Positions 9,111 through 9,694 of a stretch of DNA of 64,000 nucleotides are shown piece after piece. The notes under the pieces were generated by a model. The model saw only the letters and a program-made list of their open reading frames with translations, ran no database searches and was not told the origin of the DNA. Numbering within the stretch: the first letter of the stretch is position 1; every line of letters starts with the position of its first letter. Made by a program: the position numbers and the translations under genes. Source of the stretch: a virus. The stretch is taken from IMG/VR virus record IMGVR_UViG_3300021961_000021. One strand, 5' to 3'.

Positions 9111-9142
9111 AAAAAAAGAGACTCACTTATGTGTGAGTCTCA
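9111..9142 (-). terminator. Intrinsic terminator after the DUF4278-like peptide
   Basis: GAGACTCAC-ACATAA-GTGAGTCTC-TTTTTTT. Confidence 0.85.
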
Positions 9143-9148
9143 TAACGT

Positions 9149-9298
9149 TCATTTAACTTGCTTACTGGGTTCGTAATGCCTTACATACTTAATGCCACGA
9201 TAAATTTCTTCGCGCCATTGTTCTTGCATTGTTTCAAACTTCGCTTTACGAAGTTCTTCGGTGTCATATTGAGCACCACGATAAACTACCTTAGACAT
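9149..9298 (-). CDS. DUF4278-like small protein (49 aa)
   Basis: Hand-translated MSKVVYRGAQYDTEELRKAKFETMQEQWREEIYRGIKYVRHYEPSKQVK; two YRG motifs; TAGGAG RBS. Confidence 0.8.
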   Translation of the reverse strand: MSKVVYRGAQYDTEELRKAKFETMQEQWREEIYRGIKYVRHYEPSKQVK

Positions 9299-9330
9299 AA
9301 GATTAACTCCTAAAGAAATGAGATGGTTAG

Positions 9331-9505
9331 TCCCGTTCCTTCAGTCGGCTTTTGCGTCTACGAAACAACTTTTCTTTGTGACTTGCTTAACCTCCCACAC
9401 AAGATCATTCTTTTGTTGGTCGGTGACAATTTGACTGGCATTGATTCTACTAATGAGAAGTTGTGCCTGTAAGCAAGTTAAGAAAATCTGTTCCATAGAT
9501 GAACG
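9331..9505 (-). ncRNA. Second glutamine-II-like aptamer with an ORF nested in its variable stem
   Basis: CGTTCA (9505-9500)...CGCAAAAGCCGACTGAAGGAACGGGA (to 9331); 11-bp stem TCTATGGAACA/TGTTTCGTAGA closes the insert. Confidence 0.6.
9341..9496 (-). CDS. 51-aa ORF nested within the second aptamer
   Basis: Hand-translated MEQIFLTCLQAQLLISRINASQIVTDQQKNDLVWEVKQVTKKSCFVDAKAD; stop TGA lies inside GCCGACTGAAGG. Confidence 0.6.
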   Translation of the reverse strand: MEQIFLTCLQAQLLISRINASQIVTDQQKNDLVWEVKQVTKKSCFVDAKAD

Positions 9506-9561
9506 TCCCGTTCCGAGTCGGCTTACTTGCGTTCGCTATTTGGAAATAGCGAATGAACGAT
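9506..9561 (-). ncRNA. Glutamine-II (Downstream-peptide)-like riboswitch aptamer
   Basis: ATCGTTCA-TTCGCTATTTCCAAATAGCGAA-CGCAAGTAAGCCGACTC-GGAACGGGA; P1 CGTTC/GAACG; starts just after late promoter TAAATA (9572-9567). Confidence 0.75.
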
Positions 9562-9565
9562 AATA

Positions 9566-9694
9566 CTATTTAGTTTTTCTCTTTTTGTTTTTGTGTTTTC
9601 TCCTTTGACAGGGTTTAGTTTTATTAAGATCATTCTTGAGTTGCCTCAAGAATCTGATGTGTTTACGAGTCTCTTTTGGATCTAGCATAATCAT
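9566..9694 (-). CDS. Small highly basic protein (42 aa)
   Basis: Hand-translated MIMLDPKETRKHIRFLRQLKNDLNKTKPCQRRKHKNKKRKTK. Confidence 0.45.
   Translation of the reverse strand: MIMLDPKETRKHIRFLRQLKNDLNKTKPCQRRKHKNKKRKTK

What the first reader, a model, noticed from the sequence alone, without database searches (positions are those of the whole stretch)
9331..9572. Tandem glutamine-II-like riboswitches, the second wrapping a whole protein-coding ORF
Seen: after a late promoter (TAAATA 9572-9567) comes aptamer 1 (CGTTCA, a hairpin, CGCA..GCCGAC..GGAACGGG). Directly after it CGTTCA recurs (9505-9500), followed by TCT ATG. The matching 3' half (CGCAAAAGCCGACTGAAGGAACGGGA) appears about 150 nt later. 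The intervening 51-codon ORF is closed by an 11-bp stem (TCTATGGAACA / TGTTTCGTAGA, two G-U pairs) that contains its start codon. Its last codons (DAKAD-stop) are the aptamer core itself. Established: Downstream-peptide (glutamine-II) riboswitches occur in cyanobacteria and their phages, often upstream of DUF4278-type peptides. Inference: a coupled circuit in which aptamer 1 gates translation of the nested ORF, and ribosome transit or termination unfolds aptamer 2 and gates the DUF4278 gene. I know of no description of an ORF nested in this aptamer.
Basis: partly seen in the sequence, partly recalled or inferred. Interest (0 to 1): 0.9.

Follow-up and report, generated by a model that had tools for sequence, protein, structure and literature searches.

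The report
Gene nested inside phage glutamine riboswitch
In this cyanophage a real, conserved 51-codon gene sits inside one hairpin of a double glutamine-sensing RNA that precedes a glutamine-synthetase-inhibitor-like gene, so sensor folding and translation of that gene must compete on one RNA; I found no paper that describes this layout.

Summary
On the minus strand, 9559-9334 carries two glutamine-riboswitch cores. The hairpin of the second core is replaced by a 51-codon ORF (9496-9341). Its AUG lies in an 11-bp closing stem, and its last five codons plus the UGA are the aptamer core.

The ORF is a real gene. In 88 unique related inserts the frame is open in 84, against 1 and 0 in the other two frames. 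dN/dS is about 0.2, two Cys are invariant, and it belongs to phrog_504 (683 homologue clusters).

About 80% of 118 related IMG/VR loci carry such an insert, and the first core can hold a homologous gene.

The interpretation needs two corrections:
- The cores score as glutamine-I-like (RF01739), not glutamine-II.
- They are probably not independent tandem aptamers. Each has half an E-loop, the linker is always 3-5 nt, and their AGCCGACU segments covary (G-C, A-U, G-U in 202 of 203 units). This fits two interlocked cores sharing a helix.

The regulatory logic is inferred, not shown. This scan has already reported the same architecture on at least 50 other genomes. I found no published description of it.

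The parts
9567..9572 (-). TAAATA hexamer, possibly a T4-type late promoter; unverified
   Evidence: Sequence only. No sigma-70-like site here. Only 5 of 108 relatives have TAAATA, while 67 have a sigma-70-like promoter.
9554..9559 (-). CGUUCA(1): 5' strand of a P1 helix plus the junction A. In the interlocked model this is the outer P1, pairing with 9338-9334.
   Evidence: Aligned to RF01739 positions 3-8. Invariant in 18 un-split units.
9532..9553 (-). Plain hairpin (P2 of the first or outer core). In 43 of the 123 first-sample loci this loop holds a 62-69 codon gene (ORF-A, phrog_6471).
   Evidence: The stem covaries in the un-split units (helix 2: all 4 pairs change on both sides).
9524..9531 (-). 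CGCAAGUA: ligand-site CGC plus the 5' half of the E-loop. Core 2 lacks this half.
   Evidence: Alignment to RF01739. All 113 core 1 copies read in the first sample (found by a pattern for core 2 only) carry AAGUA.
9516..9523 (-). AGCCGACU(1): one strand of the proposed shared helix (P3)
   Evidence: Covaries with 9343-9350. Pair 5 is G-C 119, G-U 48, A-U 35, A.C 1 in 203 unique units. 79% of cells are paired, against 1-36% when slid.
9500..9514 (-). GGAACG(1), 3-nt linker GGA, CGUUCA(2): local hairpin, the inner P1 in the interlocked model
   Evidence: Predicted in the minimum-free-energy fold. The linker is 3-5 nt in all 141 unique units.
9489..9499 (-). 5' strand of the closing stem; contains the ORF's AUG (9496-9494)
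   Evidence: The first 5 pairs are conserved (94-100%). The extension to 11-20 bp occurs only in the window's subgroup.
9341..9496 (-). Nested gene: 51 aa plus UGA, a two-Cys helical-hairpin protein of the phrog_504 family
   Evidence: ORF; open frames; dN/dS 0.21; phrog_504, E 5.7e-6; C8 and C44 invariant in 79 sequences; 683 homologue clusters; AlphaFold2 pLDDT 87, helices 8-20 and 26-38.
9357..9367 (-). 3' strand of the closing stem. It also encodes C-F-V and the start of D.
9343..9356 (-). CGCAAA plus AGCCGACU(2): ligand-site CGC of the second core and the second strand of the shared helix. It also encodes A-K-A-D and the U of the stop codon.
9334..9342 (-). GAAGGAACG(2): 3' half of the E-loop plus the 3' strand of P1. 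The GA belongs to the stop codon UGA.
   Evidence: Together with the CU of 9344-9343 (CUGAAGGAA, 9344-9336) it is complementary to 9318-9310.
9307..9318 (-). UUUCUUUAG overlapping the Shine-Dalgarno AGGAG. Likely expression platform of the downstream gene: it pairs 9 of 9 with CUGAAGGAA of core 2.
   Evidence: at least 7 of 9 pairs in 82 of 142 unique leaders, and no control position reaches 7. The SD is predicted only 14-23% unpaired without ligand.
9149..9298 (-). DUF4278-like (IF17-like) 49-aa gene with two YRG motifs
   Evidence: Pfam PF14105 at 22.9 bits, E 1.1e-4 (cut-off 25.3), and phrog_5049. 90 of 92 orthologous downstream proteins match PF14105.
9118..9141 (-). Intrinsic-terminator-like hairpin followed by a T run; ends the two-gene unit

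Best explanation
The region 9566-9118 (minus strand) is a two-gene cyanophage unit whose leader is a double glutamine sensor related to the glutamine-I riboswitch.

Architecture. The two ligand-binding cores are most likely interlocked rather than independent:
- CGUUC(1) pairs with GAACG(2) to form an outer P1, which has a complete E-loop built from one half in each core.
- GAACG(1) and CGUUC(2) form an inner P1 closed by a 3-nt loop.
- The two AGCCGACU segments form a shared helix between the cores.

Nested gene. The hairpin of the inner core is expanded to hold a real 51-aa gene. Its AUG is buried in the closing stem. Its last five codons and the UGA are the aptamer core itself.

Mechanism (inferred):
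- While the RNA is being made, the AUG is free, so the nested gene can be translated.
- Once the 3' half is transcribed, the closing stem and the sensor can form only if the ORF ends are free of ribosomes. Translation of the nested gene and folding of the sensor therefore exclude each other.
- The glutamine-bound fold holds the strand CUGAAGGAACG in P1 and the E-loop. This releases UUUCUUUAG/AGGAG and turns the IF17-like gene on, as in the gifB riboswitch, while hiding the nested gene's start.
- A ribosome terminating at the UGA inside the core would transiently melt both the sensor and the anti-SD pairing.

What is shown: the anatomy, the coding status, the conservation and the covariation. 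What is inferred: glutamine binding, the direction of each output and ribosome coupling.
For: Cores:
- RF01739 match to aptamer 1.
- Un-split relatives with the same halves pass the Rfam gathering score.

Real gene:
- 84 of 88 unique inserts are open only in the ATG frame.
- dN/dS is 0.14-0.21.
- Both Cys are invariant.
- phrog_504 and phrog_6471 matches.
- 683 homologue clusters.
- 19 of 19 unique close relatives found by protein alone are nested.

Closing stem: covariation at positions 3-5.

Interlocked cores:
- Complementary E-loop halves.
- Linker of 3-5 nt in 141 of 141 units.
- Shared-helix covariation found in both search directions.
- 92.9% of cells paired in 18 un-split units, against 29-54% when slid.

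Expression platform: 9 of 9 complementarity in the window, conserved in 82 of 142 leaders, and none at control positions.

Kinetic window: the AUG is 62-67% unpaired in the nascent RNA and 2% once the 3' strand exists.

Direction of the downstream output: in the gifB leader glutamine turns translation on (Klahn 2018, PMC6212724). Huang 2019 proposes a model of the same kind (PMC6698751).
Against: - No ligand-binding, structure-probing, transcript or ribosome data exist for this RNA.
- The P1 strands are invariant, so covariation cannot tell outer/inner pairing from two separate P1 helices plus a kissing helix.
- Nearest-neighbour energies do not separate the two topologies (-65.6 against -67.3 kcal/mol). 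Both lie about 11 kcal/mol above the ligand-free minimum.
- The shared helix keeps two C.A mismatches in most units.
- The compensatory change G-C to A-U may rest on few independent events.
- In the window the 11-bp stem is predicted to hide the AUG with or without ligand, so glutamine may add little control over the nested gene here.
- The nested gene has no Shine-Dalgarno sequence.
- No promoter is established in this window.
Confidence: 0.55

Rival explanations
1. Serial tandem circuit. Two independent aptamers fold separately. Glutamine-bound aptamer 1 switches translation of the nested ORF on. Ribosomes crossing or terminating in aptamer 2 unfold it and so gate the DUF4278 gene.
For: - Each unit aligns end to end with RF01739.
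- Published work treats glutamine doublets as tandem, pseudo-cooperative riboswitches (PMC9481103).
- The tandem fold is not worse in nearest-neighbour energy.
- The ORF's AUG lies 13 nt after GGAACG(1), where an expression platform would sit.
Against: - Each aptamer alone lacks P3 and half of the E-loop.
- Core 1 and core 2 are consistently different in complementary ways.
- The AGCCGACU segments of the two cores covary with each other.
- The linker is fixed at 3-5 nt.
- The nested ORF has no SD or anti-SD element for aptamer 1 to control.
Confidence: 0.2
2. Passenger gene. The hairpin loop is a structurally tolerant site into which a small gene was inserted, like homing-endonuclease genes in peripheral loops of group I introns. 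The closing stem merely restores the sensor. There is no regulatory link between the gene and the sensor.
For: - All four combinations of plain hairpin and gene-bearing hairpin exist at both positions.
- The same protein type can sit in either slot and takes the tail that the core dictates (L056).
- The ORF interior evolves as coding sequence without conserved RNA structure.
Against: - The start codon is always 3-5 nt after CGUUCA, inside or next to the conserved stem.
- The stop codon lies inside the core in 90 of 95 cases.
- The protein family was found only in this context.
- About 80% of loci keep the insert.

This degree of overlap is more than a neutral insertion needs.
Confidence: 0.17
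3. The cores no longer bind glutamine. The element is a structured leader or processing signal derived from a riboswitch.
For: - Scores are below Rfam's gathering threshold in the window.
- P3 is missing from each unit.
- There is no experimental data.
Against: - All nucleotides reported as ligand-contacting or more than 97% conserved (CGUUC, CGC, GGAACG) are invariant in every unit examined.
- The link to DUF4278 genes is the same as for validated glutamine riboswitches.
- NtcA-box-like sites upstream in relatives point to nitrogen control.
Confidence: 0.06
4. The insert is non-coding RNA and the ORF is an accident.
For: - The insert folds well in this window (z -4.35).
- It has no Shine-Dalgarno sequence.
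Against: - 84 of 88 are open in one frame only.
- dN/dS is about 0.2.
- Both Cys are invariant.
- The interior structure is not conserved.
Confidence: 0.02

Closest known systems
Glutamine-I riboswitch (glnA RNA motif, Rfam RF01739), for example the Synechocystis gifB leader (Klahn 2018, PMC6212724)
   Same: - The CGUUCA-hairpin-CGC...GGAACG core.
- E-loop elements.
- Position in front of a DUF4278/IF17-like gene.
- A strand of P1 that can instead pair near the ribosome-binding site.
   Different: - No unit has its own P3 hairpin, and each has only half of the E-loop.
- Two cores appear to share one helix.
- One hairpin (in relatives, either or both) encloses a complete protein gene that overlaps the core.
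- The split form is invisible to the Rfam model.
Glutamine-II riboswitch (Downstream-peptide motif, Rfam RF01704; structure in Huang 2019, PMC6698751)
   Same: - The same ligand-site nucleotides.
- Found in marine picocyanobacteria in front of short DUF4278 peptides.
- A CGAC-type segment follows the CGC.
   Different: - No P2 helix flanks GGAACG, so there is no H-type pseudoknot.
- RF01704 gives no hit in the window and only 19-26 bits (gathering score 33) on un-split relatives.
Tandem (doublet or triplet) glutamine riboswitches (Weinberg 2010, PMC2864571; Sherlock 2022, PMC9481103)
   Same: Two cores lie in series on one leader. 157 doublets have been reported.
   Different: - Published doublets are read as independent, pseudo-cooperative aptamers.
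- Here the cores covary with each other, and genes lie inside them.
ORFs in peripheral loops of group I and II introns (homing endonucleases, maturases), and the tmRNA reading frame
   Same: A protein-coding frame is looped out of, or embedded in, a structured functional RNA whose distant halves must pair.
   Different: - Those RNAs are ribozymes or a ribosome-rescue RNA, not ligand sensors.
- Their ORFs do not share codons with a ligand-binding core.

Membership tests
Glutamine-I riboswitch (RF01739) | Covariance-model score at or above Rfam's gathering score (35 bits) | tested here: not met
   In the window, aptamer 1 scores 30.8 bits and native aptamer 2 gives no hit. Un-split relatives with the same halves score 36.9-39.4 bits.
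Glutamine-I riboswitch (RF01739) | P1 (CGUUC with GAACG), a hairpin after CGUUCA, and the conserved CGC ligand-site strand | tested here: met
   Present for both cores. Invariant in relatives.
Glutamine-I riboswitch (RF01739) | Own P3 hairpin and a complete E-loop in each aptamer (three-way junction) | tested here: not met
   Each unit lacks P3 and has only half an E-loop. A complete junction arises only if the two units combine through the AGCCGACU helix.
Glutamine-I riboswitch (RF01739) | Selective binding of L-glutamine | not testable with these tools
   Needs in-line probing or ITC.
Glutamine-II riboswitch (RF01704) | Covariance-model score at or above 33 bits, and a P2 helix flanking GGAACG (pseudoknot) | tested here: not met
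   No hit at E<=10 in the window. Relatives score 19-26.4 bits. No flanking complementary strands are seen.
DUF4278 / IF17-like (PF14105), downstream gene | Pfam gathering score (25.3 bits) | tested here: inconclusive
   The window protein scores 22.9 bits, E 1.1e-4. 90 of 92 orthologues match at E<=0.01. Inhibition of glutamine synthetase was not tested.
phrog_504 (nested protein) | Profile match | tested here: met
   E 5.7e-6 for the window protein and down to 5e-25 for relatives. The family has no known function.
Independent tandem (pseudo-cooperative) riboswitch | Each aptamer is a complete, self-sufficient fold with its own expression platform | tested here: inconclusive
   Against:
- covariation between the cores
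- half E-loops
- fixed 3-5 nt linker

Not excluded: P1 partners cannot be assigned, because the strands are invariant.

The most novel reading that the evidence does not exclude
Cyanophages use a new riboswitch architecture. One interlocked double glutamine sensor has protein genes written into its own hairpins, so a single RNA gives opposite translational outputs. The nested two-Cys peptide is made while the sensor is unfolded (during transcription or at low glutamine). The IF17-like peptide is made when glutamine locks the sensor. The two peptides may act together on host nitrogen metabolism.
Probability: 0.35. Interest if true: 0.9.

Novelty: new variant of a known kind. Interest (0 to 1): 0.8.

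Why it matters
Riboswitch aptamers are regarded as compact non-coding domains, and surveys concluded that phages rarely use them. One survey found only two glutamine aptamers in cyanophage genomes (PMC5473149).

Here a ligand-sensing core shares nucleotides with the start, the last codons and the stop of a conserved gene. The sensor can fold only across 140-190 nt (up to about 400 nt when both slots are filled). Standard covariance-model scans miss it, yet it is common in cyanophage contigs.

If the inferred competition between ribosome and sensor is real, it would be a new way to couple metabolite sensing, co-transcriptional translation and control of a second gene. It would also show how phages tune host nitrogen assimilation. 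Two unstudied small-protein families (phrog_504 and phrog_6471) would gain a nitrogen-related context.

Tried and rejected
- Glutamine-II (RF01704) membership: no hit in the window and sub-threshold hits in relatives.
- One covariance model spanning the insert: model R1, built from 18 un-split units, finds the 5' part (28.8 bits) and the 3' half (12.5 bits, E 1.1) separately, not as one match. Natural un-split relatives stand in for it.
- Conserved RNA structure inside the ORF: RNAalifold finds none. The window's long interior hairpin is kept only in its own subgroup.
- Programmed read-through of the UGA into the DUF4278 gene: in frame and stop-free in the window, but so in only 10 of 75 unique loci, about my rough chance estimate of 15%.
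- Signal-peptide or lipoprotein reading of the hydrophobic N-terminus before the first Cys: rejected by eye, with no predictor run. The segment is as short as 7 residues, starts with an acidic residue, and the residue before Cys is mostly T or S.
- Function by homology or fold: Pfam, NCBIfam, PDB sequences, the ESM Atlas and Foldseek against the PDB gave nothing significant.
- Host copies: the core 1 20-mer occurs in only 4 contigs of 185,579 species genomes. At least one of these is a known phage-sized contig from a single-cell assembly.
- Tools not available for this window: own-genome search (66), sequencing runs (65), complex prediction (98).
- Ames and Breaker 2011 is not held in the library.

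Full report
**Context.** The window is a T4-like cyanomyophage. nrdA/nrdB-like ORFs lie at 13499-10037, and a 236-aa ORF that I read, by recall and untested, as a transaldolase lies at 9110-8400. A tRNA lies at 7634-7562. The nearest database relatives are Synechococcus and Prochlorococcus myophages. The feature lies on the minus strand.

**Observation.** Reading 9700-9100 gives the following elements in order.
- TAAATA (9572-9567).
- CGUUCA (9559-9554), a 22-nt hairpin (9553-9532) and a core ending in GGAACG (9531-9509).
- Three nucleotides, then CGUUCA again (9505-9500).
- A 51-codon ORF (9496..9341).
- A second core (9356-9334), an AGGAG Shine-Dalgarno sequence (9311-9307) and a 49-aa ORF with two YRG motifs (9298..9149).
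- A terminator-like hairpin (9141-9118).

The 11-bp stem 9499-9489 with 9367-9357 has two G-U pairs and contains the AUG. The codons for D-A-K-A-D and the UGA lie inside core 2. The minimum-free-energy fold keeps this stem (z -4.35).

**Are these glutamine aptamers?** Rfam's gathering scan finds only the tRNA. With an E-value threshold, aptamer 1 matches RF01739 (glutamine-I) over the whole model at 30.8 bits, E 1e-4, below the gathering score of 35. RF01704 (glutamine-II) and aptamer 2 give nothing.

S-PM2 has the same leader with an ordinary hairpin in place of the ORF. IMG/VR relatives with the identical 3' half and a short hairpin reach 39.4 and 36.9 bits for RF01739, above the gathering score. 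They reach only 25-26 bits for RF01704, whose gathering score is 33. The two halves in the window are therefore the halves of a recognisable glutamine-I-like aptamer split by about 130 nt.

**How general is the split?** An exact search for the 25-nt 3' half in IMG/VR gave at least 120 loci. Across 123 loci (these, two annotated phage loci and the window) the results were as follows.
- In 97 of 118 scorable loci the partner GTTCA lies 138-195 nt upstream. The other 21 have a 12-17 nt hairpin.
- In 95 of the 97 an ATG follows GTTCA by 3-5 nt.
- 90 of the 95 frames run open to the UGA inside the core.
- The first core can also carry a gene (ORF-A, 62-69 codons, 43 loci). In 20 of these the UAA lies inside core 1.
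- All four combinations of hairpin and gene occur: 53 hairpin/gene (as in the window), 37 gene/gene (as in P-HM2), 13 hairpin/hairpin and 6 gene/hairpin.

S-SRM01, DSL-LC02 and P-HM2 annotate these ORFs as hypothetical proteins.

**Is the ORF a gene?**
- Of 88 unique inserts, 84 are open in the ATG frame, against 1 and 0 in the other two frames.
- Median pairwise dN/dS, leaving out the RNA-constrained ends, is 0.21 in the window's own subfamily and 0.14 in two others.
- In 79 distinct proteins two Cys (C8 and C44 of the window protein) are invariant. The ORF-A family also has two invariant Cys.
- A profile-profile comparison aligns the two families Cys to Cys: probability 92%, E 5e-7.
- One ORF-A-like protein sits in the second slot with the DAKAD tail (L056). 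The tails are therefore dictated by the RNA core.
- The families are phrog_504 and phrog_6471, both of unknown function.
- 683 homologue clusters exist, all unnamed.
- A search with the window protein alone found 19 unique close relatives, all nested in the same way.
- AlphaFold2 gives a confident two-helix hairpin: pLDDT 87, helices 8-20 and 26-38. It has no significant structural or sequence match.

**Closing stem.** In 67 unique stems the first two pairs are invariant, and position 3 was used to find the partner. Positions 4 and 5, which were not used for selection, pair as follows.

| Position | Paired | Pair types |
|---|---|---|
| 4 | 96% | A-U 28, U-A 14, C-G 14, U-G 7 |
| 5 | 94% | U-A 32, A-U 19, U-G 7, C-G 5 |

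Slid controls give 15-50%. The stem extends to 11-20 bp only in the window's subgroup. The rest of the window's interior hairpin is not conserved.

**Tandem or interlocked?** Notes from earlier follow-ups in this scan suggested that the two cores are nested, so I tested this myself.
- The Rfam alignments show that core 1 keeps the 5' half of the E-loop (AAGUA) but lacks the GAA before GGAACG. Core 2 is the reverse. This held in each sample for the core that the search pattern did not fix.
- The linker between GGAACG(1) and CGUUCA(2) is 3-5 nt in all 141 unique units. The two P1 strands around it form a hairpin in the minimum-free-energy fold.
- A scan for variants at position 5 of AGCCGACU in core 1 returned 53 loci, all G to A. 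In 46 of the 47 with a readable core 2, position 4 of core 2 is U instead of C.
- The reverse scan found that AGCUGACU in core 2 always goes with AGCCAACU in core 1 (11 of 11). All other variants keep pairing.
- Over 203 unique units this pair is G-C 119, G-U 48, A-U 35 and A.C 1. The helix is 79% paired, against 1-36% when slid.
- A-U versions occur in both marine and freshwater-type lineages.

The two AGCCGACU segments therefore pair. With that helix in place, the nested topology is the natural fold and needs no pseudoknot. In it the outer P1 is CGUUC(1) with GAACG(2), the inner P1 is GAACG(1) with CGUUC(2), and the outer core becomes a canonical three-way junction with a full E-loop.

The P1 strands are invariant and cannot be assigned by covariation. 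Nearest-neighbour energies do not decide either: -65.6 against -67.3 kcal/mol. Two separate P1 helices plus a kissing helix remain possible.

**Expression platform.** The nine nucleotides ending in the AG of the Shine-Dalgarno sequence (9318-9310) pair 9 of 9 with CUGAAGGAA of core 2. In 82 of 142 unique leaders at least 7 of 9 pair, and no control position reaches 7. By eye, the freshwater relatives DSL-LC03 and S-SRM01 instead show a segment just 3' of GGAACG that could pair with the Shine-Dalgarno sequence (sequences).

This matches the published model in which glutamine stabilises P1 and frees the ribosome-binding site (PMC6212724; PMC6698751). The downstream protein is DUF4278-like: 22.9 bits against a cut-off of 25.3 in the window, and 90 of 92 orthologues match.

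**Likely mechanism (inferred).** In the thermodynamic model the nested AUG is 62-67% unpaired until the 3' strand of the stem is transcribed, then 2%. The downstream Shine-Dalgarno sequence is 14-23% unpaired without ligand.
- The nested gene can be initiated mainly during transcription or while the sensor is open.
- Ribosomes on it prevent sensor folding.
- The glutamine-locked sensor hides its start and exposes the start region of the IF17-like gene.
- A ribosome stopping at the UGA covers CUGAAGGAACG, so it would open both the sensor and the anti-SD helix.

None of this was measured.

**Promoter.** No sigma-70-like site lies upstream in the window. Of 108 relatives, 67 have one ending 7-11 nt before CGUUCA(1), and 5 have TAAATA. 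Of 102 unique relatives, 83 carry a GTA-N8-TAC NtcA-type box within 90 nt upstream, against a background of 0.033. The window has none.

**Literature.**
- Tandem glutamine RNAs are known (PMC2864571). A survey counted 157 doublets and read them as pseudo-cooperative (PMC9481103).
- The link to DUF4278/IF17 is known (PMC6212724).
- A survey found only two glutamine aptamers in cyanophage genomes and concluded that phages rarely use riboswitches (PMC5473149).
- Searches for nested ORFs in aptamers found nothing relevant.
- Ames and Breaker 2011 could not be read.
- The core 1 20-mer is almost absent from 185,579 prokaryote genomes.

**Verdict.** This is a new variant of a known kind. The same architecture has already been reported by this scan on at least 50 other genomes.

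Noticed in passing
L006-L125, 90 nt upstream of the first CGTTCA (window equivalent 9560-9650, where it is absent): 83 of 102 unique related loci carry a GTA-N8-TAC palindrome (the NtcA-box consensus), mostly 58-62 nt upstream of the sensor. The background is 0.033 per 90 nt. This suggests transcriptional nitrogen control stacked on the riboswitch. The window lacks it.
   Followed up: partly
Window 9560-9620 (-), compared with relatives: 67 of 108 relatives have a sigma-70-like promoter ending 7-11 nt before the sensor. The window has only a TAAATA hexamer in an A-rich stretch, so its promoter and expression timing may differ.
   Followed up: partly
Proteins P0115-P0117 (metagenome contigs): These are natural 108-aa fusions. 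The core stop UGA is UGG, and the nested protein reads through a 14-codon linker into the DUF4278 protein. This hints that the two products work together.
   Followed up: partly
Window 9343-9296 (-): The UGA of the nested gene is in frame with the AUG of the DUF4278 gene, with no stop in the 14 codons between. Only 10 of 75 unique loci share this, so it is probably chance.
   Followed up: yes
L056:1690-1887 (-): A protein of the ORF-A type (normally in the first slot, ending GRK) sits in the second slot and ends DAKAD. The C-terminal tails are therefore imposed by the RNA core, and the gene cassettes move between slots.
   Followed up: partly
L034:1071-1268 (-): A manA RNA (RF01745, 174.9 bits) lies directly downstream of the riboswitch/DUF4278 unit in one relative. 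None occurs in the window.
   Followed up: no
L181, L183 (genome contigs): The phage-type sensor occurs on short contigs binned into an Acetobacteraceae MAG and a Poseidoniales archaeon MAG. These are probably cyanophage contigs that were mis-binned.
   Followed up: no
Window 9589-9651 (-): A weak match to the freshwater-2 RNA (15.9 bits against a gathering score of 49.9, E 7.6) sits over an AAAGGAGAAAACA stretch. It is most likely chance.
   Followed up: no
Window 9566-9694 (-): A 42-codon, very basic ORF ends with its TAA inside the TAAATA hexamer just upstream of the sensor. Its coding status was not examined.
   Followed up: no
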